Assembly: GCA_030704615.1 (NCBI GenBank)
Contig: CM060734.1
Location: forward strand, 21,452,001 to 21,516,000
DNA length: 64,000 nucleotides
Direction: 5' to 3'
Source: Takakia lepidozioides
Lineage: Eukaryota; Plantae; Bryophyta
In this document: in pieces, positions 6,661 to 33,000 of the stretch
Position numbering within the stretch: the stretch's first letter is position 1
Layout of the letters: the number at the start of each line of letters is the position of its first letter
Notes under the pieces: model-generated
Databases searched by the model: none
What the model saw: the letters and a program-made list of their open reading frames with translations, nothing else
What the model was told of the DNA's origin: nothing
Position numbers and translations under genes: made by a program

Positions 6661-9600
6661 CAAAAAGGGGGGGAGGAACAAGAAACAAGAGAAGAAAACA
6701 AAAAGCTATAGTAAGCTACTCAGCTAGAGAAAAAAACAAAAGCTATAGTAAGCTACTCAACCAGCGACGAAAACAGAAGCTATAATAAACTACTCAAGCA
6801 GAGCGACCCTCCCAACCAACAGCCTGGAGGAGATCAGGCAAGGAGATAGGCAAAGTGTCATGCAGAGGCGGAAGACGAGATGACGCAGAGCTAGCCACAT
6901 CAGCCCGATGCAAAATAGAGATGGCTTGTGCTCTCTGCAAAGCAACTGAAACACGTTGTCGATAGTAGGCGACAAGGACGGAGGCATGTGGGATGCCAGT
7001 GGACCCGCTCTTGGCTGCATGATGTGCACATGTCTGCAGGAAATCCTCGAAGTGCCGGTGCAATGAGCCAAATATCTCGACCGCTAGTGGAAGAAATGTG
7101 TCGGTGGGGTGACGATCGCTGTAGTCGCGTTCCTTGGCCTGGGCTACTACAGTGGTTGTCGTGCCTGGTGTGGTAGCTGCGCGAGATAGCAGATCCGCTT
7201 GAGTGGGGTCGGCGAGAACGACATCTGCTAAGGTACGCAAACCATCTCTAGATAGGACGATGTCAACACGGCGGCGTGTAGAGTGGGATGTGAGCGTGGG
7301 TCGTAGATGTGGTTGCTCACGCAGTACATGATACCTTGTCTCCCGAGCAATAGATGTCACCGCATCGCGAACCATATCATGAGACGCAGTGCGCTCACCA
7401 CCACATGGACAGCGGAGGAGATGGATGGCAAGGTCATCGATGGGCTGAAGACAGACGCAGCGCTGAAGGCCCAATGCCGAAGGATGAGGCAAACCGAGTC
7501 GAAGGCGAAGCGCAGTAGTGAAAATAGGGGATGAGAGGCGAAAAGGTGCGATAGTGGGTCGTGCTGTCAACCATGCCCCTACTCCGGGTCCTGCGCATGA
7601 TAGAAGTCGGGCTCGATGCAACTTGGAAGAAGCACTTGAGAGCATGCCGGAAAAGGAATGACGGTGCACGCGCTCGGAAATGGACTCCTGAAGATGGTCG
7701 AGGCCTTGAGCAACCAACTGCTCAAATGGTGGTAGACATGTTCGCGCCGGTGCCGAAAGAAGATCTCGTGCAGAGCGGAGATGCTGCTGGAAGGGTAAAA
7801 TGCCACTGTTGACATGTGCAACGGCGTCCATAAGGATGGGACGATGGTCACAGAGAAATCGTGAAGCGAGGGCTGGCGCCACCAATGCCCAACTGCCGAG
7901 GAAAGCTAACGAGGCGGTAGTGACAGTGGACAAAAGACCCACACCACCGGAAGAGACGGGCAAGGTGGCTTGCTGTTGTGGCAAAAGTCCCTGAGCACCC
8001 TCCAGAGCTTCTGGTCCTAACAATCTCCCGAAGATAGTCATCATGGTATCAAACCCAGATAAGAGGTGTGGGAAATCTGGGCTGGGTGGAACAGTGCGCA
8101 AGAGATATGAGAGACGCTGAAGGAAATATTTGGTCAAGATTCCATATGCTACCTGTACATCTCCGAGCCTAGGAAGGAGATCGGCGTGGATGGCATCCTG
8201 GTGGAGTGCATCTTCCAAGAAGGACGTTGTGAACTGGGTGGTGCCAAAAGGGACTCCCAGGATTCTGATGCCATTGGGCGGAGCAATAAAGTGAGCAGGG
8301 AGGACAAAATCTGCAGGGAAACCGGACGGAGACCACACCGCACATTTGCAAGGTTGCACTGAAAGGCCCACGGCAGAGAGTTGGGTGACAAAATGATAGT
8401 AAGCTGAAAGTACCTGTGAGGCAGGGCCTACAATGTGCGTGTCGTCTGCCACCGACGGAAAAAGACAAGATGAGTGAACTTGTGCAGAAGCCGTGAGGGC
8501 GCGGACATGAGCCATGCCAAACAAAGGTCCTCCTAAAGGGTCGCCTTGGCGGGTCCCAATCTCGGACTGAATGATGGAGCACTCACCTAGGCGAGAATGA
8601 TGACTGTAGTATAGGGGAGTGGTGGATGCATAGAATAATCGAACAAATGGAATGAGCTGGTGGAAATCTCCTCCGGCTGAACGAAGCTCCTGAAAGATAG
8701 CCGCTCGTGACACAGTGTTGAAAGCGTTGGTGACGTCGACCTGGAGAACCACCCAATCCGGATGAAGATCAAGCGCTGCACGAATCCCCTGAACCACCGC
8801 CTCGCAACCGCCTGGAGTGGCGACCCCGAACTGGTGCGGAAAGAGGTGTCCGGAGAAGGCATCTCGAAACTGAAGACAAAGTGAGCGACTGACAAGGCGG
8901 TAAAGAACCTCTCCAACTGCAATAGGGCGGATGCCAGTACCTGAGGGTTTGCTCATAGCCAACAATCTGGAGGCCCCAAGGAGACGGGCCACTGGGGCAG
9001 GGATACGGCCAGCAGCAATAAAGGAGCAAATTTGAAATAGCTGAGAGAAGCCACTAGCAGAGTCCTGTGGAGAGAAACAGTCGCGTAAGTGCTCATACAG
9101 GAGACCGGAAGGACCTGCCGCTGCAAGATGGGGACTGCGCGTGAAGGCCTGAGTGAAGACCTCCCGATCTAGCTTGAGATCCTGGTCTGGCTCGAAGTCC
9201 TCAACAAAAAGCGGCAGAATATCCTGAGCTGATGGGTGAAGGGCTTCGAGGGCAGTGACAGTATCCGGTGATGGAGGCGCTGGTGAGGAAGGTGCTAAAG
9301 CCTTGGCCGCGCGTGAGTACTCGCCAACGCGGCCTAACATGAGACTATGACGAAGTTGTCTGTGGGCCGATGAGGGAGGCTGCGTGGAGGAAGCGGGAGG
9401 GGCGCGTGCCGCAAGGGCTAGTGCCTATAATTGATGCTCATCTTGCAAGCTCTCCCAATCTCCAGATAAAAAACGGCGAAGACGGATGCGCGTCTCTCTA
9501 TGCCCTGACTGACCGCCACGAGGGGGCAAAACCAAACACCACTAAGGAAATAACAAGAAAAGATACCATGCTGGTATATCATCAAGATCACGAGCCAGCC

Positions 9601-9737
9601 TGTCTAAGGGTAGACGGAGTGCCAGTTGGACCTCATGACGTAGTGCCACCGGAATTCTTGTATAAAGACGAGGCCTTGGCAGTCCTAGCTGAAATGCGCC
9701 CAGAACATCTAGCGTTGAAAGCCAATGCCAAGCAGAG
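6661..9737 (-). mobile_element. CRE-clade non-LTR retrotransposon (RT + restriction-like endonuclease), inserted in L1 and interrupted at its 5' side by the gypsy-DNMT LTR
   Basis: Single long ORF with CRE-type motifs. The frame continues upstream to 9737 (AWYLFLLFP*WCLVLPPRGG) with stops. The 3' UTR has a triplicated motif. Confidence 0.85.
6794..9340 (-). CDS. CRE-like reverse transcriptase - CCHC zinc finger - RLE endonuclease (848 aa open frame)
   Basis: RPIAVGE, HQFGVATPGGCE, DVTNAFN, GTRQGDPLGG, ADD (RT); CVC...HLLRC, RTASHD, RVD...DV, AKERDY, FLPLAVEIFG (RLE). Confidence 0.9.
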   Translation of the reverse strand: MLGRVGEYSRAAKALAPSSPAPPSPDTVTALEALHPSAQDILPLFVEDFEPDQDLKLDREVFTQAFTRSPHLAAAGPSGLLYEHLRDCFSPQDSASGFSQLFQICSFIAAGRIPAPVARLLGASRLLAMSKPSGTGIRPIAVGEVLYRLVSRSLCLQFRDAFSGHLFPHQFGVATPGGCEAVVQGIRAALDLHPDWVVLQVDVTNAFNTVSRAAIFQELRSAGGDFHQLIPFVRLFYASTTPLYYSHHSRLGECSIIQSEIGTRQGDPLGGPLFGMAHVRALTASAQVHSSCLFPSVADDTHIVGPASQVLSAYYHFVTQLSAVGLSVQPCKCAVWSPSGFPADFVLPAHFIAPPNGIRILGVPFGTTQFTTSFLEDALHQDAIHADLLPRLGDVQVAYGILTKYFLQRLSYLLRTVPPSPDFPHLLSGFDTMMTIFGRLLGPEALEGAQGLLPQQQATLPVSSGGVGLLSTVTTASLAFLGSWALVAPALASRFLCDHRPILMDAVAHVNSGILPFQQHLRSARDLLSAPARTCLPPFEQLVAQGLDHLQESISERVHRHSFSGMLSSASSKLHRARLLSCAGPGVGAWLTARPTIAPFRLSSPIFTTALRLRLGLPHPSALGLQRCVCLQPIDDLAIHLLRCPCGGERTASHDMVRDAVTSIARETRYHVLREQPHLRPTLTSHSTRRRVDIVLSRDGLRTLADVVLADPTQADLLSRAATTPGTTTTVVAQAKERDYSDRHPTDTFLPLAVEIFGSLHRHFEDFLQTCAHHAAKSGSTGIPHASVLVAYYRQRVSVALQRAQAISILHRADVASSASSRLPPLHDTLPISLPDLLQAVGWEGRSA

Positions 9738-10443
9738 TGTCGTGCGCATACATATCGCTACACAACTACATCGCTGTCCAAAACCACACAACACATGTGC
9801 ACACCACACACTAGTATACCACTAGTCTACCACTAGTCCAGCCACTAGTCCAACCACTAGGCTACAACTAGTCAGTCACTAGGCTGCCACTACGCTGCCC
9901 ACTATGGCAGTCACTAGTCCACACAATGATAAAGAGGAAGGATACAAGCACAAGCTCATGCGAGCTCACAAAGCTGAAGCATAAACTCATGCATATATAA
10001 CCTCATCACTCAAATACAAGTCAAGCCAAGTGCACCCCACGCCATGGGGAATCCACACTACGGCGCCATAGCTAGGCGCGGTGAGGCTCAACTCGAGAAA
10101 GATGAGCCTCCCACGCTTGCCGTGAAGATAACCACTCCAGGGCCTAAATCTGCCTTGACCCCTGGATTGACACTTGGGCCAATCCCAAATGTCAATATGT
10201 AAAAGATAGCTATTTCCTAGCTAGTTTCACACTAGTGGTAAAATAACTTGACAGCTGTCGTGCGCATACATATCGCTACACAACTACATCGCTGTCCAAA
10301 ACCACACAACACATGTGCACACCACACACTAGTATACCACTAGTCTACCACTAGTCCAGCCACTAGTCCAACCACTAGGCTACAACTAGTCAGTCACTAG
10401 GCTGCCACTACGCTGCCCACTATGGCAGTCACTAGTCCACACA
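9738..10443 (-). repeat. 3' LTR region containing two identical 188-bp TG..CA direct repeats (9738-9925, 10256-10443)
   Basis: tgtcgtgcgcata...ctagtccacaca is present twice, 330 bp apart. The repeat is rich in CACTAG units and the PPT is adjacent to 10443. Confidence 0.8.
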
Positions 10444-10703
10444 ATCGCCCCCCTAGCTGGTGCTTAGGTCCCTCTAAGTCCAGGTAGCCACAAGATGTGA
10501 TAGTGACCATAGCCTCACTAAGTCCTCCACCACTATCCCTACTACACTCAAACTCGATAGATCAAGAGGCCGGGTGCAAGAGTTGCCCCATCGTTAGTCG
10601 CCGTCTTGCAACCCGTGAACTTGAGCTTGGGATCTTATGTATTGACTCCTATGAGCTTGGCCTCCCATGTCTTGTTAGCTGCCTCCAGTCATGTCCACTG
10701 CCA

Positions 10704-10860
10704 CTATCCCAAGCAGTGTGGACACAACCAATCTCCGTCAGGCACCTTCTCAAGAGGTGGTGTCAAGCATCCCATATGCCAACCCCTTGAGCACGATCAC
10801 ACACCAGCATGGTGGCTGCCCCTTTGGCAGACCCACAGAGCATGCACCTCAAACCTGCAG
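10704..10860 (-). pseudogene. PHD finger at integrase C-terminus (1-nt frameshift near 10793)
   Basis: Restoring one base gives [49 protein letters not shown], a C4-H-C3 PHD consensus. Confidence 0.88.
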
Positions 10861-13678
10861 GTACCACTGCCAAGTTTGGGTCAACTCTGCCATCGACATT
10901 GGGAAGGTGACATGGCGCACAATTACGCACATGGTCTTTCCAAGTCATGCCATCCCGACCCTCTAAGATCAGGACCCCTGAGGGCAACACCTCTCGAACC
11001 CTCAGAATAACACGCCCTGCAGTAACATCCAGAGTCGTAGGAGCAGTCTGCTGCAAATAAACATAGTCACCAGGGCTAAACCTCCGAACCCCAGGACGAT
11101 ATCCTCCACCACGTATAGTGGCATACCTCAACGTATCACGGTGCTGTGCAATGGCAAGGTTCTCAAAAGCCATGGGCATGACTTTCTTGAACAACTCTGC
11201 ACGCTGATCACATGCACGTACCCACACGTCCGGATCGTCAAGGTTAAGGACTTGAGCAGTGTCCCTACGAATGGCTGCAGGCAAATCCGGCTCTCGGCCA
11301 AAGAGAAGGAAATATGGTGAGAAGGAGGCAAGTGATGCTTGTTTGCTGAACCTGTAGCCCATGGCTAACCAAGGAACCTGAAGATCCCAATCTCCTAGGT
11401 GTCCCTTCTGCAAGCCATACTTGCGCAAACCCCTCTTCACCGTCTGAACAACTCTCTCTGCTAAGCCATCGGCCTCAGGATGATCCCGAGAAGTGGTGCG
11501 GTGGTCTATCAAGGCTTTATCACACAAAGCCTGAAACTCCCCCAAGAACTCTCTCCCTTGGTCCGTGAGTACCTCAGCTGGAGCACCAAATCGGCTAAGC
11601 ACACGATCCAAGAATGCATACGCAGCCCCCTCACTAGCCTTGTCAGGCAATGGAACCAACTCAATCCACTTGGAGAAGTGCTCCACCATCACCAACACAT
11701 ATCTGTGGTGGCGCATAGTCAGTGGCAACGGTCCTGCGAAGTCAAGACTCCACCTGTAGCCCAATCCCATGATAGGTAAAGGATGCAACTGTGGTGTAGG
11801 GGCGTTGAATGAAGCACGCACCCTGTCACACACCATGCACCTAGCCACAAACTGTTGCACCTCTGTATGCATACCACGCCACCAATACTGCCCCTGCAGT
11901 AAACTGTGAGTGCGTCGCACTCCAAAATGCCCCAACTCCTCATGGGCATGCCGCACTAACCGTGCACGCTGTGTGGGGTGAGGCACAATCCTCACCCGAC
12001 CATCCTCCCACACTCGAAGTAGGTGTATCCCCTCCCACTTGAACCTCTTGGCTCGTTGCAGGATCCGATCCCTCTCCCTGGCAGTCACAATGGCTGCCGT
12101 GTCTCCCGTGCGGAGGTAGTCCAACACAGCCGAATCCTCATGTATATCTCTGGCACCACCTAGCTCATCACTAGCCTCAGGGTCCTCAGACACTCCGTCT
12201 ACAGTCATCCCTGTTGTAGGTCCAATCTGACCTCCCGATGCCAAGATACACAAAAATGCAGATGCGTGCCATCCCGGCACCATCTCCTCGTCCGTCTCAC
12301 CATGCCACCGAGCTCCAGTGTCATCCTGCTGGCTCATGCATGGATTGCGACTCAATCCATCCGCATCCCGATTGACCAAACCCGGTCGATGCACAACCTG
12401 AAAGTCATACTCCTGGAGTATAAGTGCCCACCGTGCAAGCTTCCCCGTAAGCTTGTCTGACTCCATCAACCACTTGAGTGGCTGGTGATCCGTGACAAGG
12501 GTGAAAAGATTGCCGTATAGATAGCACCTGAAGTGTGCCACGGCCCACACTGCAGCTAAGCACTCTCCCTCATATGAGCTGTACTTAGCCTCTGCAGCGT
12601 TGTTCGAGCGGCTAGCGTAAGCCACTACGAACTCTCTTCCCTCATCATCCACCTGTGTGAGCACCGCTCCAAGCCCCAGCATGCTCCAATCCGTATGCAG
12701 CTGAAAGGGACGCCCCCTGATAGGTCGTCTCAAGATAGGCGCCGAGGTCAACCTCGCCTTGAGCTCTTGAAAAGCTCGTTCCTGCTCATCTTCCCACTGC
12801 CACTCCTGGTCCACCTTGGTCAGCTTGGTTAGAGCCTTTGCAATGGTACTAAATCCCTTGACAAACCGTCTATAATAGTTTGCCAACCCCATGAAAGCTC
12901 GAACTCGGCTCACATCCGTGGGGCGTGGAATTTGTGCAATGGCCTCTACCTTAGTCTGCTGTACCCCCAATCCTCCAGGATATATCATGTGACCCAGATA
13001 CTCAATCTGGTTGTGGAAAAACTTGCACTTCCCCGGATGCAACTTCAATCCGTGCGCTCTCAAGCGCTCCAATACCACCTGAAGGTGTCTCTCATGCTCC
13101 TCCATCGTAACACTAAAGATGATGATGTCATCTATGTAGCACCGAGCAAAGTCCACCCCTGCTAGAATCCTATCCATGACTCTCTGAAACTCTGCAGGAG
13201 CATTCTTAAGCCCAAATGGTAAGAACCGCCACTGATATAGGCAATCCTTGCCGTGCTCATTGATCCCCCAGAATGCCGTCTTCTGCTTGTCCGCCTCCTT
13301 GATTGGCAACTGGTGATATCCGGATCGTAAATCCAAAGTGCTAAAGGCCTTAGCATGCCCGATGGCATCAAAGATCTCCTCTGGTGTTGGCATGGCATAC
13401 TTATCGGACTTGGTCTGACGATTTACAGGCCGGTAATCACCGCACATACGTCTCTCCGTCCAATTGCCATAGACATCCTTCTTGGCTGGCATCACTGTGG
13501 CTGAAGCATACTCTCCACCAGAGAGCTCCACCAAACCTGCCTCCCAGAGATCTTGAGTCCTCATCTGAATCAAAGACCTCTCCATGTCACTGTATCTATA
13601 GGGTCTCCGAAAGATTGGCGTGTCAGTGGCCAACTCAATACGGATCTCTTGACCCTTCAGTGCTCCCAAGTCCTTCAA
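10763..13678 (-). CDS. pol: RT - RNase H - integrase (GPY/F-like tail), 971 aa open
   Basis: [22 protein letters not shown] (RT); [21 protein letters not shown] (RH); HEELGH...CMVC, LDFAGP, TDQGREF, GLAER (INT). Confidence 0.95.
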
Positions 13679-14099
13679 ACTGAAGGCAAAGCAATTCCTG
13701 TAAGCCCTCAGGAACCGCCGTATACGTCGTCTCTCTCCTCCGGTGACAATGGGTCCAATGTCAGGCTCCCAATTGTCCTCCGTAACTACAACCTTAAGTC
13801 CAGTGGGCTTAGAGGTAGAGGACGCGTCCCGTGGTTGCTATGCTGCAACCTCTTGAGCAGTACTCCCTACCTGCTCAGTCAATGACAAGGCATCATCCTG
13901 CCCCATCATCTCATCCTTGAGGACCTCCTCAACCGAGAAGAATCCCCAACCTCATCCATCACAGCCGCCTTGGCTGCCAACTCCCTCTGAACCTCGAGCA
14001 CCTCCCACGTGTGCCATGGATGCATGCACCCCGTGGTCCTCACATGCTCGCCCCCACTCACTGCCTGTACCGTCTCGGTAGGCAGAGAGACCATTGAGG

Positions 14100-15100
14100 G
14101 AAGTGTACTCCGCACTCTGCGTTGCTCAGCTAGAGCCAAGCTGATAATCCAGGTCAAGCAATTGAGATCCATTGCTTGCCCCAACACTTGACGACGTGAT
14201 GCCTCAGAAAGAGACGACACCGCCGTGGTACCAGTGGTAAAACCCATTGCCCGCTCACGCTCGTCAGCATTAGGCTCCACTAACTGCTGCAAACTGAGCA
14301 TCCCACAGGAGGCCAGGTCCACTATCCCGGAAAGCATGCGATCCTGGGAAGCTGAGCAGTGTAGGTAATGCTGCTCGTGGTTGACCCACCTTGTTGACCA
14401 CTGCCAAAGGCGAACGGTCATCGTGTCTCACACGTTGAGACTGCCTCCCTGTGTCCAGAATGTTATCCACTGTGAGATGTGTTGCTGCCGCTGCACCCCA
14501 TCAAATGCACGCTTGAGCAGTGCGGGTGGCATCATGTTAGTCCACCATAGCCGTGGACGATGAGCCCGTGACCCCACTGTAGCTGCATCTAGCAACACTG
14601 CTGACCCAAGCCACGACCGGACTTGATGCACACTGGCCATCACCCTGGCCCGAGAATCGCCCATCAGTGGCACATTCTCCAAGATGTATGCTGGAGATAC
14701 AGCTTGATGAAGCTGCAAGTGGCGCAAAACCCGCACCATCTCCCAAAACAGACCCGACCTCGAGTCTCGCAATCCATTGCCATGCCCGGCTGATGAATGC
14801 CCTTGGCAGGGCCAACCTGCCACTACCAGATCAATGGAGCCAACCCGCTCCAAATCCTGCGCCCCCAGCAACGAAATGTCTGCTGGCAAGGCCTGCTGAT
14901 ATCCACGAATTGCAGACACCGACAACAACTCAGGGTACCGCTGCACCAACTGAGCAACATGGCGAAGTGAAACGCGTCGTGCAGTCTCATCCCTCTCCAC
15001 ATACAGGTAACGCCGAACTCGTACACCTGCCTGTAACACAGCAGCCAATCCGGTGCTGATCCCGCCAAACAAGTCCAGAAGACAAATGCCTTCATCCGGA
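14100..15100 (-). pseudogene. C5 cytosine DNA methyltransferase domain, DNMT3-like, within the retrotransposon polyprotein (two frameshifts near 14475 and 14280)
   Basis: Motif I LDLFGGISTG, motif II YVERD, motif IV DLVVAGWPCQ, RSGLFWE, motif VI LENV, motif VIII HRPRLWWTN, motif IX ERAMGF, motif X RRQVLGQAMD, all in unpermuted order. Confidence 0.93.
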
Positions 15101-15449
15101 GACTGCCACACAATAGGTGTGTGGTGTCCAATGGAGACAATTGAGGTGGTCCTGGTGCAATCCCCCACACTCTCCTCCTCTCCTGACGGTACAAAAGCCT
15201 CCACCCAGGCTTGTTGCACCCGTCGATCAGCATCCCGCTGCAAATCCTTGCTCGTGCCCCACAATGGAGTCTGAGCAACCATGGTAGGCAACTCCGCCAT
15301 ACCATACATGTCATCCTGCTCTCCCAGGAGGTGGTACATCCTCTGAATGAGCATTGCCCTCAAGCAACTCTCTAGGCCAACTCACTGCCGCTGTGAATGC
15401 TGCTAGTGTCGGCATCTTGCCTCGCTGGGCAACCGCAACTCCTCCTATG

Positions 15450-15835
15450 AACGTCACAGGGAGCTGCACACGGCCCCCTCCCCTGACTGCCATGCAGGCC
15501 TATAGGAAGCTGACTCCTCCCAAAAATCCAGGGTGAAGCCCATGGGGTACAACACTGCCCCACCAACACCAGGACATCGTATGAGACTGCGTCTGTCACA
15601 ATGGCCTTGGCTCGCATCACTGAGCCATCTGTAGGGTGATCCGGCCGTAGTCTGATAGCCAACTCACGCCGTGTCATGCCCCGAGCCTGCTCCGATCCTC
15701 CAGAGACGTCTGTATCTGGAAAGGACAAGGCTCCATATCCGCCTCCGTGAGGCCCAAGCCTGCAATAGCAGCTCTGCCCAGCATCAGTGGCTGAGCTCCC
15801 GAGTCCAACAAGACTCGCAGTGGCCGGTACCTCTT
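15450..15835 (-). pseudogene. Retropepsin aspartic protease of the gypsy-DNMT element (frameshifted)
   Basis: Alternate frame reads RPLRVLLDSGAQPLMLG (DSG at about 15797-15805), followed by ...SYDVLV(L)G. Confidence 0.8.
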
Positions 15836-16699
15836 GCCTGCCGGTCCACTCTCAAACAGAAAATGCCATCCTGGTTGTCTAACATGACAACTCCAGGTGT
15901 CACCATGGCGCGCTCAATGGCTGGCCTAGCTGGCAGCTCCATCAACCTGGCAGCTGCAGCTTGCCATGGCGCCGCCGTGGCAGTCTTGACCCTCAAATCC
16001 GAGGATCCCTCCGGCACTACACCTCCCACTATCTCCGCAGAAGATGAAGTAACCTCCCCACTCTCACAGAGTGTAGCTGCCAGCCTGAACACCTCAGCTG
16101 GTCTTACCCCCGGCGTCGCAATCATGGTAGCCGAGAACAATGGAGCCTGGCACACAGATGTGGCCGCTCCTAGCAGCACACTAGCTGCCGTAGCCTTGGC
16201 AACACTAGGTAGTGGTGCTACCCGTGTAGCTCTCCCCAATGGCATAGTAACCTCCGCCTCGGTAACAGTCGGGCGAGAACTAGGTGCCATGGATGGCGTC
16301 GACACTGTCTCCGCCAATGTGAATGACTGAGGAAGCCTAGCCTGACGGCTTGCCTCCCCACGCTGTGGATCCAACTCCACCTCTGCACCTCGTGGCTCAG
16401 GAACTCGTGCTGCTCCTCGAGTCACGGCTGCAGCAGACTCCACCTGCACTAGTGGTAGTGCTGCTCCACACATGAATCCCATGCCTCCCATATCTCCTCC
16501 CTCAGGAGCAGGAGGTGGACCATCCGGCCTTAGAGCCGGTACACCTGAGCTGTAGCCATGGCAGCGAGCCTCTGCTCTAGCTGCTGAAGCCGGTTGGCCA
16601 TGCCTTGGTCAACACCCTGACCTCCGCGTCCTTGGCCACGTTGAGCTTGCCCTTGGCCTGCACCTCGTGGCTGGCCACCTCGTCCTCTCTGGGCTGCTC

Positions 16700-18019
16700 C
16701 ACCTCGCCCCCGGCCACCATTGTTCCCTTGGAACTGGCCTGGCGCAACTCAGGATGCAAACCATAACACTGGGCCTCTCCATGCCCGTGTTTGCCACAAT
16801 GCCACACACTGCAACTGTGCAGGCTGTGCATGTGCCGGCCCTTTGCCTCCCTCTGGGCAATCCTTCTTGACATGGGGTCCTCCACATGTCCAGCACACCA
16901 CATCCGCCCGTTGTTGGCCAGCAAATGAAGGGAGAGACCCCTGCATCTGAGGTCCTCTCTGCCCTTCCCTGAGCTTCACCTGAGCCCCCTTGTTGCCTTG
17001 AGCACGTTGAGGTAGTGGTTGGCTAGGAGCACCACTACCCCGTGGTGTCTCCTTAGCAAATCCCACCATGACCACTCGTTCCTCCACCATGTTGAGCTCT
17101 ATCCGCTCTGCCAGCAAAAACACATTTGCTAAGGTGGGTTGGGCCGCTTGTAGGAGAGTTGCATCCCGCACCCTTCTCCTCAGCTCCTTGTCCAATATCC
17201 CATACCAGAATTGGACTGCCTGAGCTTCCGTAACCCCTTGGGTTACATTTATCAAGCGCCTCATGCGAGTGAAAGCCTCCCTCAAGCTCTCGGTCGGCTT
17301 CCGTTGGAACTCTTGCAAGCTCCGCAACTTCTCTGTCCTCACCCCTTGGTAGTTCCCTCTCAACTCTTCGAAGAACTCCACAACAGGGTTGAGGCAGGCA
17401 CGGGTGCTAGTGCTGGTGCGTGGTAGTGGCTTGGGTGGACGTCGTAGCTACTGTACACCAGTCCCACTGCTACTTGCTGAAGCTGCCGGTGCAGCGGCAG
17501 GTGTAGCCACTGCCCTCGTGGCTCTAGTGCCCCTAGTGATGGAGACATAGTCGGGTGACCAGTACATCCTCCACTCCTCGATCTCAACCTCATGCCCCCG
17601 CCTGAACTCATGGTAATCATCCATAGGCGGCCCCTCAAGGTGCTGAAACAGCCCTTTCCATGCCATGAACGGCGTAAATAGTTGTGGATTGCGCATTTGC
17701 TGCAAATCACACCAACTATCAAACTCTTGGATAAAATCATCCAACTCGATGGTGCCCACCGCCCCAGAGTACCTTCGTGGCCCCTTGGTAGCTCCATACA
17801 TCTCCTCCATTGTGTCCCACAACAATGGCAAGAAAGAAACACTTGCACCGCCGGTATGAGTCCTCCTGATTCACAATCCGAATCAGAACCTTCCGTGGAA
17901 GACACAGGAGGTGAAGGTGGCCTAAACCGCACACCTCGTCTCGTGTACCCACTAGTATCGCTAGTGCTCGAACCGGCACTGTCCCCAGCAACTAGTGGCA
18001 CCTCCGTGTTGACACTCAA
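16700..18019 (-). pseudogene. gag of the gypsy-DNMT element with two zinc knuckles (disrupted)
   Basis: LDDFIQEFDSW, EFQRKPTESLREAFTRM, CWTCGGPHVKKDC and CGKHGHGEAQC across ORFs 17448-17831, 16749-17381 and 16577-16924. Confidence 0.8.
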
Positions 18020-18719
18020 CCGGTCATGAACATGTCCCTAACCCCCTCTCCACAAGGTAACCGGGGTAGAGAACCTGTTGCGGCTTATGGTTTGGAATAC
18101 TAAGTTCCTAACATAGCCTACACCTGTACCTGCATCCACCGCAAGCACTCCTATGGTTGGCTGGTCACACCTCCAACCTCAACACAGGAGAAACAATGAT
18201 GGTCTGGCTGGTCATCACCCAGCCTCACCATCGACAGCAGCTCTAGACTGGCCGGTGATCAAATCCGACCAATCACCTATAAAAACAAGCGCCCACACAA
18301 AACTAGCATGGCGCACAGTCAAGCATGCAGGTATGGAGGGGATCCAAACACAAGAAATCAGATCGACAACTCCCCCACACCAAAAACAACTCCACGGTGT
18401 TGCTCCTGCAAGGACACCCCAGCCCAAACCGGACTGACTCTTGCCTCCACCTACGGAAAGGTCTTGGCCTAATGAGAGGGTGGAAACTACGAGGAAGAGA
18501 AGCTAAAGCAATGCCTAACCCCAGCATGCTCTATCCCCAACACTCTTGCCTCTCCTCTCTATCCTCACTTGCATGACCATGGGAATATCATGAAGATACT
18601 CCTCAAACCGCCCTCCACGAGCTTCAAAAAATTCGGCCTTCCAGACCACATGCCAGTCCTTAGGCAGACCCACCAGTGCCTCCACGAGTCAGCACAGGCC
18701 GTCCACAGGTCAACACGGG

Positions 18720-19242
18720 GCCACCACAGACCAGCACAGGCCCACACAGCTCACTGGTCAGGCCGTCACAGTCCCACAGGCCACTGGGCACAGCCTGTCG
18801 CAGCCCCCCTCACAGCCTGGTCACAGCCTCAAAGGCCCTCAGGCTCACGGCGTCAAAGCCCTCAACAGCCCCCCTAACAGCCCAAAGGCCTCAGGCACGT
18901 GCATATCACAGCCACTTCACAGCCCGTCACAGCCCCAAAGGCCAGCGGCACGGCCTGTCACAGCCCCTCCCAGCCCCGTCACAGCCCAAAGGCCTCAGGC
19001 ACGGCGGTTTGTCACAGCCCCTCAACAGCCCCTCACAAGCCCCCAAAGGCCAGGGACGGCCTGTCACAGCCCCTCACAAGCCCCCGTTCACAGCCTCACA
19101 GGGCACAGGGAAAGATAGTCACAAGCCATCACAGCCCCCATTTCAAAGCTGTCACAGCTTTGCCACAGCCCATCCACAGCCCATCACAGCCTCAAAGGCC
19201 AGGACACGGCCTTTTTTGTCACAGCCCCTCAAGCCCCCCTCA
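18720..19242. repeat. Degenerate (GT)CACAGCC short tandem array in the 5' untranslated region of the gypsy-DNMT element
   Basis: Many cacagcc/tcacagcc units up to the N gap. Confidence 0.85.
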
Positions 19243-19742
19243 NNNNNNNNNNNNNNNNNNNNNNNNNNNNNNNNNNNNNNNNNNNNNNNNNNNNNNNNNN
19301 NNNNNNNNNNNNNNNNNNNNNNNNNNNNNNNNNNNNNNNNNNNNNNNNNNNNNNNNNNNNNNNNNNNNNNNNNNNNNNNNNNNNNNNNNNNNNNNNNNNN
19401 NNNNNNNNNNNNNNNNNNNNNNNNNNNNNNNNNNNNNNNNNNNNNNNNNNNNNNNNNNNNNNNNNNNNNNNNNNNNNNNNNNNNNNNNNNNNNNNNNNNN
19501 NNNNNNNNNNNNNNNNNNNNNNNNNNNNNNNNNNNNNNNNNNNNNNNNNNNNNNNNNNNNNNNNNNNNNNNNNNNNNNNNNNNNNNNNNNNNNNNNNNNN
19601 NNNNNNNNNNNNNNNNNNNNNNNNNNNNNNNNNNNNNNNNNNNNNNNNNNNNNNNNNNNNNNNNNNNNNNNNNNNNNNNNNNNNNNNNNNNNNNNNNNNN
19701 NNNNNNNNNNNNNNNNNNNNNNNNNNNNNNNNNNNNNNNNNN
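19243..19742. other. Assembly gap (500 N)
   Basis: Run of exactly 500 N. Sequences on the two sides do not continue each other. Confidence 1.
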
Positions 19743-20619
19743 TGGTGTATCTTAGATCGCCATAAGACCATGGTCCAAATCTCAAGTATATGTGTCATAG
19801 AGCTGTTGAGGCATATCTATGTTCAAAAACATTAGGTTTTTTTTATGAGAATAATTACCTCAACAATAGTTTTTGAGGGAGGTAAAAACAATTGTTCATT
19901 ATATTGTTATCTTTATTACCTCAACAATAGTTTTTGAGGGAGGTCAAAAACAATTGTTCAGTATGTTTTTTTTTTTTTGGTTATTTTTCAATAGTGAAGT
20001 GGTTTGGATGATAAAGTGAATAAAAATGAATAAGGTGGCTGCAAGGGGGACGAAAGGGTGACTATGGAGGAGGATGAAATTAAAAAGCGTGATAAGTCGA
20101 ATGAAAATGTGAGTTATTCACTGTGGGGGGATGAAAAGGCAGTTAGTGGTTCACTTGGTAATTCTACTTTCGTTTCCACGATCCCGACAACCATTGGTGA
20201 TTCATATTGGACTGATTGCATTTTGTACTAACTTTTTGTTTGTGTACATAGAGACTTTATGTTGCAATGGGCAAGGTCCTTGGATCGGGGTTCAAATCCT
20301 CCATTAAGTGCAAATTGTATGAAATTAGATTTTTGTACTTCTGAATGGTGCTGAGTATCATCAACCTATTTTGTGGTGTTCACCAAAAAACTCTATTTTG
20401 TTTCCATATTGGTAGCCTTTAACATGCTATGTCAATTTTAGATTGTTTGCCTTATTGTCTCTACTATGTTTTGGATTCATTCGCCTAACACTCATTCAAC
20501 ATCTCCTACAATCGCCACTTATTTTGAATCGGCATTTTCTACCATAGCCACACATGCTCCACTTAGGTTCCCATGGCTGCCACTCGCGCCACAATGCAAA
20601 TAGTATAAAAGAAACGTTG

Positions 20620-20835
20620 GCGACCACTCACAAATCAGGCCCCTTAATTACAGTGAGTGGAGAAAATAACCTTTTTCATAGTAGACTTGCCATGAGGAGC
20701 CAAGCACAAGGCTCTAGGAACACCGCCCAAGGGAAGAGGGAGAAGATTATACCACACCCGACAAGGTAGCAGGATTTTGAACCGAGAATTACCTGGGTGG
20801 CACTCAGTGCTCTATCCAACTGAGCCACCCACTCG
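20620..20835 (-). mobile_element. tRNA-derived SINE-like element; second partial copy at about 20880-21017
   Basis: Minus strand reads gggtggctcagttggatagagc (A box)...ggttcaaaatcc (B box). The downstream body (taccttgtcgggtgtggta...gaaaaaggttatttt) is repeated at 20910-21017. Confidence 0.65.
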
Positions 20836-21029
20836 TGTTATAAGTTTATAAAAGAGAAATGAATTCCTGGGACTAGCTAGCGACTGCTCACACTTTAGGT
20901 CCCTTAATTAGAAAATAACCTTTTTCGAAGTAACCTAGGCGTTGAGCACAAGGCTAATGGGGCGACTACGTGAGGAGGGGAAGGAAGAGAGATCGTACCA
21001 CACCCAACAAGGTAGCATGTGTTTTGGTT

Positions 21030-25100: not shown

Positions 25101-27260
25101 CGAGTTGTCGCAAGAAGTGGATGATATGTTGTGTGAGATATGTGATGAGGATCAGCTTTCGTTTGAGAGTATAGAAAGGGCTGTCGTGGGTGACCTTGCT
25201 GCATTAATCAGTCATCACGAAGCCCTGTTCACAAGACCTTTGCTTGAGCCTGGTGCGGTGGTGTCTAGGGCCAGACAACTTGCTAGGACAGAATTTGAGT
25301 TACGTAATGAAGAACGTTTGCCGTCTAGAACAATTAAGTCGCATTTCCTGCATCACCAATTGACCTAGTTAGAAGTGGGTTTGTATTTGCCTCTCTCTGG
25401 TGTTCGAAGTGGGGAGCTTCATCAGGGCCCTGGTTTGGTGGGGCGAAGGTGGTTGTCGTTGATGTTACAAGGCACGGGGGCTCTGATCTTGAGGGCGTTA
25501 CGGTTTCAGCTCCGACCTTGCGCCTTGGCGCCTACTTATTCACAGTTGGTTGATGGTTTGAAGGGTGGGGCCTTGACAGTGCAGTCATCTGATCTAATAG
25601 TCTTGGGTGTGGGTACTACTTTTGCTTCACAGCGGGTGGTTCGCCCGAGTGCGTTTGAGAGCTTGAATGACTATTCGAACTCGGCTGTGCTTTTGCGCAC
25701 GTGAAGAGATGGTGACACTGCCCGCGTAGGTTTTTGGCTTAAGGAAGCTTACGGCTGGGAGTGGCTGGCATTGGGAGTCTACGAGCTGCAGTCACACAAG
25801 GTGCTGAAGGTTGTGTATTGTTCCACTTGGGTTCCAGAGGTCAGCTCCCCGAGCGCTCGGCCCACTCTCCATATCCCTGCTGCTTAAAGGTTAACTTTCC
25901 AATCTACTTTCATTTCTTGCATGCTAGGTGATTCTAGAACTACTTGGCTGAGATCAGGAAGGCAGAGGTCCATGAATAGTTCAGGGGAGCCGCTGGCCGA
26001 AGGTGTAGTAGAAATGAACGAGGGATAGGACAACCTGCAGGCAGGTAATTTCGGGGCCAATGATGATGAATTTTTGAACGATGGTACGTTGACACCGGTC
26101 GTAGAGTCCCCAGCTGGTATTGCGTTGGTAGATGAGGGTTCTGGGATAGCCAACCCCGAGGGTCTCTCTGTTTATGTTCAAGGTGATGAAGCCATGATGG
26201 CTAGACAAACCAAGCCTACGCTGGCTCGGGAATTGATCGGTCTACCCTCCCATCCTGTTCATATTCAGGGGGTAGACAGGTCTGGTTCGGATGTTTGGGC
26301 TACTATGAGCGGTATGCCGACCCCAGTGACGAGTACGATGCATGTACCTGTGATTAGTCTCCCTAATCCCACTCTTGGGGGAGGGACTAGTTCTTTGAAT
26401 TCAAGGCAAGAGGTCAATCATCTACCAACCCTACCTCTCTTGTACCAACTCAAGTTGTTTTATCTACTAACTTTAAGGCCTTGCATTGTCCTCTGAGCAG
26501 ACGAGCTGCTGACCAGCAGATCAATCCCCTTGTGGCTCATTGTCACATCCATGAGCTAAGCTTTCCTTGCGTGATTGATACAGGATGCACCATATCTGCC
26601 ATACCTTTGAGTGTAGTAAGAGTCCTTAGTCTTAAGCTATGCCCTGCTTCAGGAATTGAGGTTTTGATTGCTGATGGGTCAAGATATGAGCCTTTGGGAC
26701 TAGTTACTGTGCCCATCAGGATTCACAAGAAAGAGGTGGTGATAACCTGCATAGTTACAATTGGGGAACAATTCCTGCTAGGCCTTGACTGGATGACTGG
26801 AGCTGGTGCCACCATCAGCCTGGCAAACTATTCCCTTCACTTTAGCAATGGTGAAGGACATGAGATTATGGTCCCCTTGAAAGCAGTGAAAATCAAGGCT
26901 GGGTCTGCTACGGCCAATCTATCCAGAGTCCAGGCCATGGTCAAAGAGGTACAACAAAACTATCATTCCAACCTCTATTGGAATGATTTTTACAAATTTC
27001 AGCCTGATCTTCAACTCTTATATCAATGGCATGTTCCTAGTGCTGGTGGTAAAATAGGGATGCCCATAGCTGTTCCATGGAATTCCACCCTAATTCGTGC
27101 ACCTCTCAACGTAACCATCCCTGCCATGACCCAGAAAGTGGTCAAATATGGCATGGCCTTCCTCTGTCCAGCTGCTCACTTCTTGGAAGTTGAAGGATAG
27201 AGGAGACTGACTGCCCTTAAGCATTGCCTGGTGGCCACATGTGTTATAGATAGGGACCCA
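22127..27260 (+). mobile_element. Unclassified decayed element family D, copy 1: orphan ORFs plus aspartic protease and dUTPase-like start
   Basis: ORF 22859-23650 (one in-frame stop), long frame 24856-26496 with stops, protease VIDTGC...LLGLDWM (26481-27200), then NVTIPAMTQKVVKYGMAFLCP. Paralogous to 52453-53316. Boundaries are approximate. Confidence 0.6.
24065..24270. repeat. About 104-bp tandem duplication, with related ggctt-cac-agtgtg motifs at about 23990 and 24301
   Basis: gtggcatgct...gggactcag is present twice in tandem. Confidence 0.85.
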
Positions 27261-27671
27261 ATTGTAGTGATTGGGGCGCGCGGTTGGTTCAAGGTTATCT
27301 TCCTCGTCAAAGAGGGTTCGAGGTGAACCCTTGCTCAAGGTGATGCCAAAAGCGGCATCATGAGCGGTTGCAAACAATGTTGTTGCAGTAAGGCGATTCG
27401 ATCCTCGGGGAGGATCGTTCCTTGGCCTTGAAGTAGGCCAAGAAGAGTGCACTGGGAGGAGCTTGAGAGGCTGCACCCTTGGCCGAGACTTGGAGGAAGT
27501 CGGCCGAACTAGCTAGTGGAGAGTAGAGTCAAGTGTGGGGTTTGGTTCTTTGCCATGGGACGTCATGGTACGGAAACAAACTCCTTGATGTGGGACGCCA
27601 CAACTTGGATGTTCGTTTCCACAAAATGGACAAGACAATGAGGACATCGACTCCCTGTTGGTAGGGGTGTG

Positions 27672-28398
27672 TGTCGCGGCCCTTTGCCTTGAGGGCAGGG
27701 GGTCAGGACACAAGAGGGGCTGCCCCTGTGGTGGGGGCAGTGGCAGCGATAGGTATGGGGGGCTGAAGCACCCTTGAGTGCCCAAGACACTCAAAGAGGC
27801 GGAGGCGCTCACTAGGTGGAGCCCCGCACACCGGGTTGCGGTGGGGGTGGCTCCACAAGGGGTGGTGGTAGCTTAGCGGGACTTAGTGGGGGTGGCATAG
27901 GACTCACCTTGGGGCGGAGACCTCGTGGTGGGAGTCGTGGGGAGTCTTGGGACTCATCACGGTCCATAGGGGCCGTGGTGGGTGGGCCAAGACTCACCGC
28001 GACTCATCACCGGGAGTTGAGGGTGTTCGTGGTGGTTCGCCATAAAATGGCATGGTTGTTTGTGAAACCCCCGCGGACAGCTACAGATGTATATATATAG
28101 GGAATAGTAACCCCAAGAACGGTGCAAGCCCGTTGGTGACCAAAAACTAGTGAGTAAGCGAGCGAGCCGGAAAGCGACCAAAGAGTGGGGAGCTGTTCCG
28201 GACTGCCAACTACCAAAGGGAATTCCGCTGGTTCCAAATCGTTGGAGGGTTCTTTGGGAGATCAAAGGGGGACCGTTATGCCCCTGTGAGTAGCCGGAGC
28301 TCCAAGTTGGCATGGCGGCCAGGTTGGGAGTTAGGCGCGCGCATCAAGCGAGTATCTATGACTTGAGGGGGGAGCTTACCGAAGTGAGGTGCGCGACA
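27672..28398 (+). repeat. Solo LTR, family C (727 bp)
   Basis: tgtcgcggccc...ggtgcgcgaca is the reverse complement of the LTR at 51727-52452. No PBS or PPT is adjacent. Confidence 0.92.
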
Positions 28399-31300: not shown

Positions 31301-32421
31301 TACACTTCATCCTTAGTTTTGTTTGTCCTGAACCTGTTTTGGAATGCCGTACTAAGGCCATTCCAGGTTAGGAAATGATTATCTGGAAATCTTGCATACC
31401 ATTCACCTTCTTTCTTGATAAGTGAACAAGGAAACAGTCTCATCTTGACATCATCTCCACTCTCATTGTTCACAATACACATGTGCTCAAATTGGCTAAT
31501 GTGTACATCAGGATCCCCTTTCCCTACATATATTGGAAAATGTGGTTTTGCCCGTGTTGGAGGTACCGCCATCTGTGGCCCTACACCCTGCCCTCTGGCA
31601 GGTGCTGGTCCTCTTGTTGGTGCTGGTCCTTGAGCACTCCCTGCTACTGGCCCCTCTATACTCACAGTATTCCCAGCTCCAGTTGCACTACTTCCCACAC
31701 TCCCTGTCCCCCTAGAGCCAGATCCAAGCACTACTTCCCACACTCCCTGTCCCCCTAGAGCCAGATCCAAGCTTCCCGCCTGATCACCCTGAGCCGACAC
31801 CTTCGTTGGCCTGTGATTCAAGTGCTCCACTTGATCCAGGTCCAACGGGTTGGGATGTCCTGGTTGTAGTTTCAACCTCAACTGTTGGGTCTACTTCTTC
31901 ATACTCCTCATCTTCCAAATTCTTCTCTCTGTTTTCATCTTCCAAGTTCTTTTCTTGGATTTCTTCTTCCTCACTCATGTAACTCAACTGGAGTGGTGTG
32001 GGAGAGTCTGAACTCTCCGTTGGTTCTGTCACATCTTCCTCTCCATCTTTATCTTGTAATTCAGAAACTGGAGTTCCTGCCTTTGGTGTCCCATGCCAAC
32101 TCTTATCAAAGATTTCAATCAAATCCTTGATCCAGGGATGTACCTCAGATCTCTCCCCTCGTGGTTGATCTTCTTCTTGTACCAAATCCCTTAATCTTTC
32201 TTGTAAAGAATAAGAAGGAGTGGCATCCAACTCTGGTTCCTCCGGTATGGGTGATGTACTCTTCAATCTTAATGGTGTGAGAGGTCCAGACGATTCTCCT
32301 ATGTCTATTCCTCTCTCCCAAAGATATGGATAATTAGCTTTCAAATAACTTTCTCTTTTTGCTGAATATCTGTGAAGTCTAGCTTCTCTTTCATCACTCA
32401 TGTCCCATGTCTTTCATATCT

Positions 32422-33000
32422 TCAATGAGGCAATAACCAAAACTCTCTTCTATAGTATCTCTCGTATATGCCTGGGTTTCTTTCAAGCTTCAATGCACCC
32501 TTGGCTATACTAAAAGTCTCTGTTACCATATAACCATATGGCAAGCACGTCTGAAAAGCTGTTCTTGGTGTCAATTTGATCCACAGGATATCCTTAGGAA
32601 TCCAATTCTTTACCAGTACCAACTCTTCATGCATATGAGTGTAAACATTCACTTTCCGTTCCTCCCAGCCTTCAAACTCCACTCGTTTTATGGATAGCAA
32701 CGCTATCACATAAACCAGCGTTGGTAACCAACTTGCTCTCCCTCTACAGGCCACTTGATAAATCTTTATCACTCCTTTCTCCAGACCCCACTCAGGATCT
32801 GCATCATGCACTCTCTTAAGAATGTTTTCTTTGCAACCGTCTGGCAATTCCAAGAATCTCTGAAAGAATTGCTTAGACAACCTTTCTTTCTCAGTTCCAT
32901 AGGGAATTTGATTCACATCAAATTCTTTAATTCTCCAACCACCATGATCCCACCAGATGCTTGTCACATCTGGTTGTTTTTGACCCAGTATGATTGCCAA
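32422..33000 (-). CDS. Extra 5' ORF (192 codons) of unknown function, family B
   Basis: Uninterrupted frame that opens at the PBS (TTG, not ATG). Homologous to 1150-1745. Confidence 0.65.
   Translation of the reverse strand: MAIILGQKQPDVTSIWWDHGGWRIKEFDVNQIPYGTEKERLSKQFFQRFLELPDGCKENILKRVHDADPEWGLEKGVIKIYQVACRGRASWLPTLVYVIALLSIKRVEFEGWEERKVNVYTHMHEELVLVKNWIPKDILWIKLTPRTAFQTCLPYGYMVTETFSIAKGALKLERNPGIYERYYRREFWLLPH

What the first reader, a model, noticed from the sequence alone, without database searches (positions are those of the whole stretch)
14100..15100. Land-plant Ty3/gypsy retrotransposon encoding its own DNMT3-like cytosine methyltransferase between protease and RT
Seen: C5-MTase motifs I (LDLFGGISTG), IV (GWPCQ), VI (ENV), VIII (RPRLWW), IX (ERAMGF) and X (RQVLGQ) lie in unpermuted DNMT3-like order. 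They are intronless, on the same strand, and positioned between the DSG protease (about 15800) and RT (from about 13700) of one LTR element. Known: DNMT-bearing retrotransposons have been reported in dinoflagellates and in the charophyte alga Klebsormidium; I do not know of them as a characterised feature of land plants, which the flanking genes suggest this host is. Inference: the enzyme would be cleaved from the polyprotein, packaged in the particle, and could methylate the new cDNA, or act as a mobile source of de novo methylation. This copy has two frameshifts in the domain but keeps the catalytic residues.
Basis: partly seen in the sequence, partly recalled or inferred. Interest (0 to 1): 0.92.

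Follow-up and report, generated by a model that had tools for sequence, protein, structure and literature searches.

The report
Moss retrotransposon with its own DNMT3
A broken copy of a repeated jumping gene in a bryophyte (likely a moss) carries a DNMT3-like DNA methyltransferase at the end of its capsid-protease gene; this kind of element was described in one green alga, occurs across mosses and liverworts, and likely makes the enzyme in bulk and integrates by cutting open a circular DNA copy.

Summary
Observation confirmed. A DNMT3-like domain (PF00145 E 3e-13; DNMT3A is the best sequence, profile and fold match) lies between protease and RT of a Ty3/gypsy element in a bryophyte, likely an early-branching moss. 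It is no one-off: relatives occur in Marchantia, Calypogeia, Sphagnum, Closterium, Tetraselmis and Klebsormidium, under purifying selection. It belongs to the KnitGypsy-Dnmt3 lineage (de Mendoza 2018). This scan already noted such elements in other moss DNA.

(1) The enzyme ends the gag-protease ORF. A conserved in-frame stop (32 of 34 relatives; TMV-type leaky context here) separates it from RT-RH-INT, so it is likely made at Gag level. (2) There is no LTR pair. The layout is A-internal-B-A-B with 4-bp target duplications, and the element's two ends are the halves of a palindromic B|A junction, which suggests that integrase opens a circle. (3) A PHD finger ends the integrase.

This copy is dead. 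Methylation activity is untested; the Klebsormidium enzyme showed none in yeast (inconclusive). I found no land-plant report in ten literature searches. Marchantia makes the function testable.

The parts
9738..9927 (-). Repeat B2, the 3' terminus of the element (ends GACA)
   Evidence: 190/190 identical to B1. Contig depth steps at 9737/9738 and 49 contigs run on into unlike flanks there.
9928..10253 (-). Repeat A2 (begins TGTCA); the same sequence forms the 5' end of other copies
   Evidence: 19 contigs run on into unlike flanks behind 10253. In complete relative L041, A1 and A2 match 313/339.
10250..10259 (-). Palindromic B1|A2 junction GACA-GC-TGTC, predicted integrase attachment site
   Evidence: Same junction in L006, L018 and L041; 2-nt spacer varies in L044 and L047. 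Its two halves are the element's termini.
10256..10445 (-). Repeat B1
10446..10459 (-). Polypurine-tract-like run directly upstream of B1
   Evidence: Near-identical in the window and in 5 of 5 Sphagnum-type loci listed; its role is inferred.
10707..10846 (-). PHD finger at the integrase C-terminus, frame break near 10796
   Evidence: PF00628 E 4.8e-7. The relative's PHD best matches CHD4, DPF2/3, PHF12, ATXR5 and KDM5B PHDs.
10763..13837 (-). ORF2: RT - RNase H - integrase, open for 1024 aa
   Evidence: RVT_1, RT_RNaseH, Integrase_H2C2 and rve in Ty3/gypsy order
13832..13840 (-). Stop codon with TAG-CAA-CCA context between ORF1 and ORF2, predicted leaky
   Evidence: A stop at the matching place in 32 of 34 relatives. 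The context fits the CAR-YYA consensus (PMC2754532, passages).
14110..15099 (-). DNMT3-like C5-cytosine methyltransferase domain, last domain of ORF1; broken near 14480 and 14285
15567..15845 (-). Aspartic protease (LDSG at 15808-15797), with frame breaks
   Evidence: Asp_protease_2 E 0.013, below cut-off; aligns to the protease region of Marchantia P0005
16548..17810 (-). Gag with zinc knuckles, with stops and frame breaks
   Evidence: Retrotrans_gag E 0.0014, below cut-off; 54% identical to Marchantia P0005 residues 1-415
17811..19242 (-). 5' leader with degenerate tandem repeats; the A1 repeat and primer site would lie in or beyond the N gap
   Evidence: Tandem arrays at 18679-19191; gap at 19243-19742; in L041, A1 begins about 1.5 kb before gag

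Best explanation
This is a dead copy of an old green-plant Ty3/gypsy lineage (the KnitGypsy-Dnmt3 kind) whose DNMT3-like domain ends the Gag-protease ORF, so the enzyme is likely made at Gag level and likely packaged, and it would methylate cytosines of the element's own new DNA before it integrates. Shown: the domain and its position, the conserved stop before RT-RH-INT-PHD, purifying selection, A-internal-B-A-B repeats, 4-bp target duplications, and termini that are the two halves of the palindromic B|A junction. Inferred: the stop is read through at low rate to give Pol; reverse transcription is self-primed and treats B+GC+A as the LTR unit, from the purine tract before B to the primer site after A; the product closes into a circle and integrase cuts the CA|GC-TG junction to give A-internal-B-A-B; the PHD finger reads histone H3 at the target. 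The likely benefit of methylation is that new copies arrive already marked like host heterochromatin, or that the long-lived cDNA is protected.
For: Identity: the family profile ranks DNMT3A (E 2e-26) and DNMT3B (1e-23) above DRM (4e-13), HhaI (5e-9) and DNMT2 (2e-5). An AlphaFold model of relative P0013 (pLDDT 85) best matches DNMT3A/B/C, E 1e-19, TM 0.80 by target. Catalytic Cys is kept in 125 of 126 domains, Glu in 126, the two Arg in 121 and 122. Selection: window against 48-49 JGI loci gives DNMT pN/pS 0.20-0.28 with saturated synonymous sites, like gag 0.27 and PR 0.22. Position: ORF1 proteins of 1250-1430 aa end after the DNMT and ORF2 proteins are separate. The stop is at the same place in 32 of 34 loci, and DNMT and RT are in one frame in 23 of 34. 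Repeats: exact 4-bp TSD in 5 of 6 elements with both ends; host copies end at 9738 and 10253. Precedent: foamy-virus integrase cleaves palindromic LTR-LTR circle junctions (PMC1180852, abstract); SymbioDIRS-Dnmt3 methylates CG de novo (PMC5890265).
Against: No activity data exist, and KnitGypsy-Dnmt3 gave no methylation in yeast (called inconclusive by the authors). Within the Sphagnum family the DNMT is more relaxed (pN/pS 0.56-0.60) than RT, RH and INT (0.39-0.42), and 40 of 49 copies have a stop in the N-part. Only 2 of the 32 relatives have the exact CAR-YYA context; 30 read CAA-CCC, and most have an in-frame ATG right after, so re-initiation is possible. P0481 has everything in one ORF, so the stop is not universal. 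A symmetric two-junction circle predicts A-B-A-internal-B insertions, and none was seen among 19 5' ends at 14 distinct sites. The self-priming match beat shuffles in only 5 of 14 ends, and the window's own primer site is in the gap. The element is no more CpG-depleted than its surroundings (o/e 0.40-0.65 against 0.36-0.78).
Confidence: 0.5

Rival explanations
1. The DNMT acts on host chromatin or on existing copies rather than on new cDNA, as self-silencing that limits the element's burden or as a mobile source of de novo methylation, possibly aimed by the PHD finger.
For: ORF1 position implies an abundant product that could enter the nucleus. The PHD resembles CHD4, ATXR5, KDM5 and BHC80 PHDs, which I recall as readers of unmethylated H3K4, as is the ADD domain of DNMT3. 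De Mendoza raised the self-limiting idea.
Against: The PHD is on the integrase, in the other ORF. Klebsormidium has an ordinary plant-like methylome despite these elements.
Confidence: 0.17
2. The DNMT serves the replication chemistry: it methylates one of the two identical junction palindromes and so decides which one integrase may cut, in the manner of restriction-modification.
For: The junction holds symmetric CAG/CTG sites and a conserved CG four bases before it in the window and in Sphagnum. The missing A-B-A-internal-B form needs some asymmetry.
Against: No direct data. The spacer varies in 2 of 5 loci. Repeat structure was not seen for the algal RH-DNMT-INT group. Distance from the circle junction could give the asymmetry without methylation.
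Confidence: 0.1
3. The domain is kept for a non-DNA role: RNA methylation or nucleic-acid binding inside the particle.
For: No DNA methylation by the Klebsormidium domain in yeast. Gag-level abundance would suit a structural role. In 52 of 126 family domains the motif IV Pro is Glu.
Against: All catalytic residues are near-invariant. The closest folds are DNA-acting DNMT3s, far ahead of DNMT2.
Confidence: 0.13
4. The DNMT inference holds, but the repeats work as in DIRS/Ngaro elements: the RNA runs into B2 and the internal junction templates end repair, without an LTR-type two-junction circle.
For: De Mendoza describes the KnitGypsy repeats as DIRS-like. Such a route could explain why only A-internal-B-A-B is seen.
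Against: A purine tract before B1, a primer-like site after A1, a DDE integrase, TG..CA ends and 4-bp TSDs are LTR-type features. No tyrosine recombinase was found in the element ORFs scanned.
Confidence: 0.3
5. One-off capture of a host DNMT3, a mis-join, or contamination.
For: The assembly has a gap at the 5' end and many frame breaks, some of which may be assembly errors.
Against: 62 independent metagenome loci; PR lies upstream in 39 of 45 and pol domains downstream in 37 of 42. All four runs cover the DNMT about as deeply as RT and INT. No DUF3444 of plant host DNMT3 was found in four family proteins.
Confidence: 0.01

Closest known systems
KnitGypsy-Dnmt3 of Klebsormidium nitens (de Mendoza et al. 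2018, PMC5890265; parts 1, 3 and 4 of 7 read, text supplements searched, figures not held)
   Same: Intronless unpermuted DNMT3-like domain in a Ty3/gypsy element; purifying selection; DIRS-like A-coding-B-A-B repeats by the legends of Figs 1e and 4c; same gag-PR-DNMT order in KFL_013780020 (37% identity over the N-part); one RT clade, 100/100.
   Different: The host is a land plant. The paper places the DNMT in the Pol ORF and, in what I read, says nothing of a stop before RT, a PHD finger (0 hits), target duplications, the palindromic junction or self-priming.
SymbioDIRS-Dnmt3 of Symbiodinium (PMC5890265)
   Same: DNMT3-type domain in a retrotransposon with split direct repeats; shown to methylate CG de novo in yeast.
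   Different: It uses a tyrosine recombinase and has the DNMT in the RT ORF; here a DDE integrase makes 4-bp TSDs.
Plant host DNMT3 (PpDNMT3a/b; Yaari et al. 2019, PMC6453930, passages)
   Same: Unpermuted DNMT3-type catalytic domain in non-flowering streptophytes.
   Different: Host genes carry a C-terminal DUF3444; none was found in four family proteins. No host DNMT3 sequence was available for a tree.
PHD-bearing chlorophyte Gypsy elements (Gypsy-7a_cRei; bioRxiv 10.1101/2022.06.16.496473, passages)
   Same: Ty3/gypsy polyprotein with a PHD finger.
   Different: Described with ordinary LTRs and no DNMT in the passages read; its sequence was not compared.
EpiLTRs and DAM-LTRs (bioRxiv 10.64898/2026.05.21.726589, passages; supplements closed)
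   Same: LTR retrotransposons pairing a DNA methyltransferase with a chromatin reader.
   Different: Their DNMT is sister to DNMT4 and paired with DAM and a chromodomain; the authors call it distinct from streptophyte Gypsy-DNMT3.
Foamy virus integrase cleavage of 2-LTR circle junctions (PMC1180852, abstract only)
   Same: A retroviral-type integrase cutting a palindromic LTR-LTR junction to give processed ends.
   Different: There the junction is made from the cDNA ends; here a copy of the attachment palindrome is encoded inside the element, and cleavage is only inferred.

Membership tests
DNMT3-type C5-cytosine methyltransferase | Motifs I-X in unpermuted order with catalytic Cys, Glu and Arg | tested here: met
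DNMT3-type C5-cytosine methyltransferase | Closer to DNMT3 than to DRM, DNMT2 or bacterial MTases by sequence and fold | tested here: met
   Profile and Foldseek on relative P0013. The ESM Atlas first hits were phage C5-MTase clusters at 0.95, a less specific signal.
DNMT3-type C5-cytosine methyltransferase | Groups with host DNMT3 in a tree with DNMT1, DRM and bacterial outgroups | not tested
   No host DNMT3 or outgroup sequences were fetched; the tree holds family members only.
DNMT3-type C5-cytosine methyltransferase | De novo cytosine methylation activity | not testable with these tools
   Needs an assay; this copy is broken.
Ty3/gypsy retrotransposon | gag, PR, RT, RH, DDE integrase in RT-RH-INT order | tested here: met
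Ty3/gypsy retrotransposon | TG..CA termini and short target-site duplication | tested here: met
   In relatives, exact 4-bp TSD in 5 of 6; host termini mapped; the window's own TSD cannot be read.
Canonical LTR element | Two full direct LTRs flanking the internal region | tested here: not met
   A-internal-B-A-B in L041; no 5' A preceded by B in 19 loci
Canonical LTR element | tRNA primer-binding site after the 5' repeat | tested here: inconclusive
   No TGG-type site by eye; the sequence after A1 is complementary to A itself (16 nt in 2 of 14 ends, above shuffles in 5 of 14). Not compared with tRNA sequences.
KnitGypsy-Dnmt3 lineage | DNMT3 domain within a Gypsy coding region | tested here: met
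KnitGypsy-Dnmt3 lineage | DIRS-like split direct repeats | tested here: met
   the Klebsormidium layout is taken from figure legends
KnitGypsy-Dnmt3 lineage | Shared ancestry of RT and DNMT with the Klebsormidium elements | tested here: met
   RT-RH clade 100/100 against six outgroup rows, streptophyte subclade only 88/90. Klebsormidium P0272 falls in the DNMT-before-RT group, FastTree 0.96, midpoint root.
KnitGypsy-Dnmt3 lineage | Purifying selection on the DNMT | tested here: met
   pN/pS 0.20-0.28 between families, 0.56-0.60 among Sphagnum-type copies
DIRS / tyrosine-recombinase retrotransposon | Tyrosine recombinase, no DDE integrase | tested here: not met
   rve and H2C2 present; no recombinase in the element ORFs scanned (not every frame was scanned)
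Chromovirus | Chromodomain after integrase | tested here: not met
   PHD finger instead
Plant host DNMT3 gene | C-terminal DUF3444, stand-alone gene | tested here: not met

The most novel reading that the evidence does not exclude
An unrecognised class of green-plant retrotransposon, widespread in mosses and liverworts including Marchantia and invisible to LTR-pair finders, that must integrate from a circle: integrase opens an internally encoded palindrome, and a Gag-level DNMT3 methylates the cDNA first, perhaps choosing which of two junctions is cut.
Probability: 0.3. Interest if true: 0.85.

Novelty: new member of a known kind. Interest (0 to 1): 0.62.

Why it matters
Why retrotransposons carry the enzyme that silences them has been open since 2018, partly because the known hosts are hard to manipulate. 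The same lineage has many annotated loci in Marchantia polymorpha, some with all catalytic residues, and met1 mutants there de-repress transposons, so the question becomes directly testable. The split repeats with a DDE integrase offer a natural case for integration from a circle. They also explain why surveys that require an LTR pair would miss the family. Counts of DNMT genes in bryophytes can be inflated by these elements.

Tried and rejected
No whole genome is held for this window, so no genome-wide copy census was possible. IMG/VR scan: 14 stretches matched a pattern, none was a relative. Sequencing runs: no RNA holder listed; this is no evidence on expression. Contig depth was not used as a copy number. 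The window's own A1, primer site and TSD could not be read: they fall in or beyond the gap, the listed loose ends did not show the primer site, and the empty-site continuation is not in the window. Rfam: 0 matches in 9000-21000. CpG depletion does not single the element out. ESM Atlas gave only generic C5-MTase clusters. Twelve alternative or antisense ORFs in the element had no Pfam match. The incongruence between the element tree and the host tree was not tested with test_one_clade, so no horizontal transfer or donor is claimed. Single-B 3' ends (L017, L023, L027, L029, L031, L059) were not taken as proof of one-junction circles: L027 and L047 share a flank but differ as B against B-A-B, so B-B recombination or assembly collapse can explain them. 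Our-findings look-ups by sequence, by place and for 'split direct repeats/readthrough' returned nothing.

Full report
Observation. Pfam PF00145 matches at E 2.9e-13 and the best solved relative is DNMT3A. A profile of 62 family members ranks DNMT3A (2e-26) and DNMT3B (1e-23) above DRM (4e-13), HhaI (5e-9) and DNMT2 (2e-5). A model of the natural relative P0013 (pLDDT 85) superposes best on DNMT3A/B/C. The window copy has two breaks in the domain, near 14480 and 14285, and more in gag, protease, the linkers and the PHD, so it cannot make the enzyme. Some breaks may be assembly errors, since B1 and B2 are still 190/190 identical.

Host. The window holds PPR, FHA (nibrin-like, my reading) and BTB genes. 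The BTB exon is 88% identical to a cluster holding Sphagnum proteins, 82% to Marchantia paleacea, 80% to Ceratodon and 56-57% to gymnosperms. In a tree it branches as sister to the other mosses with weak support, 82/94. The host is a bryophyte, likely an early-branching moss.

Not a one-off. Of 40 proteins found with the DNMT query, 20 are Marchantia polymorpha models (from several assemblies, so not 20 loci), 2 Calypogeia and 2 Sphagnum. 625 clusters at 50% identity match at E 1e-10 or better. A metagenome scan gave 62 loci from 143 candidates; one matches a Sphagnum fallax model at 100% over 141 aa. PR lies upstream in 39 of 45 loci with enough sequence and pol domains downstream in 37 of 42. 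Several loci are the same insertion seen in different assemblies. Thirteen of 17 listed runs hold part of the element. In four runs laid, the DNMT is covered about as deeply as RT and INT. In run X2, 49 contigs leave the 3' terminus and 19 leave the 5' terminus into unlike flanks.

Selection. Against the JGI loci, synonymous sites are saturated (pS 0.71-0.96) while pN is 0.16-0.21 in the DNMT: pN/pS 0.20-0.28, like gag (0.27) and PR (0.22), a little above RT, RH and INT (0.14-0.20). Among Sphagnum-type copies, which are mostly dead (40 of 49 with a stop in the N-part), the ratio is 0.56-0.60 for the DNMT against 0.39-0.42 for pol and 0.47-0.50 for gag and PR. Across 126 domains the catalytic Cys, Glu and two Arg are kept in 125, 126, 121 and 122.

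Lineage. The pol relatives (120 listed of 5543) form an RT-RH-INT-PHD group with members named from Calypogeia, Riccia, Marchantia, Coleochaete, Closterium, Klebsormidium, Tetraselmis and Tetrabaena. The DNMT sits in two places: before RT (bryophytes, Closterium, Klebsormidium, Tetraselmis) or between RNase H and integrase (45 of 149 representatives examined, mostly unnamed). RT and DNMT trees both largely separate these two architectures (FastTree, no outside DNMT outgroup). In an IQ-TREE run of 34 chosen rows the group is 100/100 against six outgroups, and the window joins the bryophyte elements at 98/95. Klebsormidium KFL_013780020 is gag-knuckle-PR-DNMT, 37% identical over the N-part, numbered next to RT-RH-INT KFL_013780010. 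This is the KnitGypsy-Dnmt3 lineage. Sphagnum-type loci group with Marchantia (98/93) rather than with the window; this may reflect old paralogy or transfer and was not tested.

First correction: two ORFs. Bryophyte-type relatives are annotated as gag-PR-DNMT proteins of 1250-1430 aa and separate RT-RH-INT-PHD proteins of 1030-1090 aa. In 32 of 34 loci with both domains a stop lies 177 nt before the RT core, and DNMT and RT share one frame in 23 of 34. The window has TAG-CAA-CCA at 13840, which fits the CAR-YYA readthrough consensus of TMV, about 10% in vivo (PMC2754532, passages). Only 2 of the 32 relatives match it exactly; 30 read CAA-CCC, most followed by an in-frame ATG, so re-initiation is an alternative. 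Either way the DNMT would be made with Gag, likely in excess over RT and integrase (inference). One distant member, P0481, has a single ORF.

Second correction: split repeats. The window ends B1-GC-A-B2. L041 is complete: A1-coding-B1-GC-A2-B2, 9127 bp, A copies 313/339 and B copies 106/113 identical. Five of six elements with both ends have an exact 4-bp TSD and the sixth matches 3 of 4. The termini, TGTCA and GACA, are the two halves of the internal junction GACA-GC-TGTC. That junction and a purine tract before B1 are shared between the window and Sphagnum, while the rest of A and B aligns only in short patches. After A1 the relatives carry a sequence complementary to A at position 164-171, 26 nt below a TATA-like box. 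The match is 16 nt in 2 of 14 ends and beats 200 shuffles in 5 of 14, which suggests Tf1-type self-priming (known in plants for Tcn1 and TAR; PMC6317226, passages).

Mechanism, inferred. With priming after A and before B, reverse transcription would treat B+GC+A as its LTR. A-internal-B-A-B then follows if the cDNA closes into a circle and integrase cuts the palindrome after CA on each strand, leaving the usual recessed CA ends. Foamy-virus integrase cleaves such palindromic junctions (PMC1180852, abstract). Against this, the mirror product A-B-A-internal-B was not seen among 19 5' ends at 14 sites, so an asymmetry is unexplained and a DIRS-like route stays open. A co-packaged DNMT would most simply methylate this cDNA. 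That step is untested, and the Klebsormidium domain was inactive in yeast, which the authors call inconclusive.

Third addition: a PHD finger ends the integrase (PF00628 E 4.8e-7). The relative's PHD best matches CHD4, DPF2/3, PHF12, ATXR5 and KDM5B. That several of these read unmethylated H3K4 is recalled, not tested.

What is known. De Mendoza 2018 (PMC5890265; parts 1, 3 and 4 of 7 read, three text supplements searched, figures not held) reports the Klebsormidium element and its DIRS-like repeats. Sarre 2025 (PMC12344493; section 5, passages, supplement legends) and a 2026 preprint (10.64898/2026.05.21.726589; passages, supplements closed) refer to DNMT3 retrotransposons of 'streptophytes'; their tree figures, which I could not see, may include bryophyte sequences. 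Ten library searches (six of them aimed at land-plant DNMT elements or split repeats) showed no land-plant report in the listings. Passages of Yaari 2019, a Marchantia met1 preprint and the Neumann 2019 classification (0 hits for PHD, methyltransferase or Marchantia) do not mention it. The Neumann survey required LTR pairs of 95% identity, which these elements lack. The library misses most subscription papers. Earlier notes of this scan describe the same kind of element in other moss DNA; none was returned for split repeats or readthrough.

Verdict. A real feature and a new member of a known kind: the land-plant range is probably unpublished but already seen in this scan. The expression layout and the junction-based integration model are the additions here. 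Interest 0.62.

Noticed in passing
window 6794-9424 (-): An open 876-aa RT ORF (RVT_1 E 6.5e-12) of a non-LTR element; its C-terminus looks by eye like a restriction-type endonuclease (CRE-like, recalled). The DNMT element's 3' flank is itself repeated, and other copies run on without the insertion.
   Followed up: partly
window 37000-43200 (+): Tandem cluster of PPR genes (PPR E 6e-24), PLS-type by eye, with frame breaks and a repeated WWxNR-like module.
   Followed up: no
window 54891-56500 (+): FHA-domain gene (E 2e-5), likely nibrin/NBS1 by my reading.
   Followed up: partly
window 59120-60460 (-): Two-exon BTB/POZ gene of the At3g56230 type, used to place the host.
   Followed up: yes
P0033, P0035, P0165 and about 45 other representatives: A large, mostly unnamed group (one member named from Tetrabaena) with the DNMT between RNase H and integrase; many family domains have Glu in place of the motif IV Pro but keep Cys. 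Repeat structure unknown.
   Followed up: partly
P0042 (Coleochaete scutata transcriptome protein): Full RT-RH-INT-PHD ORF, 70% identical to the window and closer to bryophyte elements than Klebsormidium's are; real or contaminant not checked.
   Followed up: no
P0346 (cluster of P0044): A family member is annotated as 'uncultured Synechococcales cyanobacterium', likely plant or algal DNA mis-binned as bacterial.
   Followed up: no
L012 13156-13444: A rearranged copy whose A|B junction retains a piece of the post-A primer-like sequence, as imperfect circle junctions would; single case.
   Followed up: partly
window 26391-33018 and 44272-51737: Other decayed retrotransposon fragments (aspartic protease; RNase H and integrase zinc finger).
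   Followed up: no
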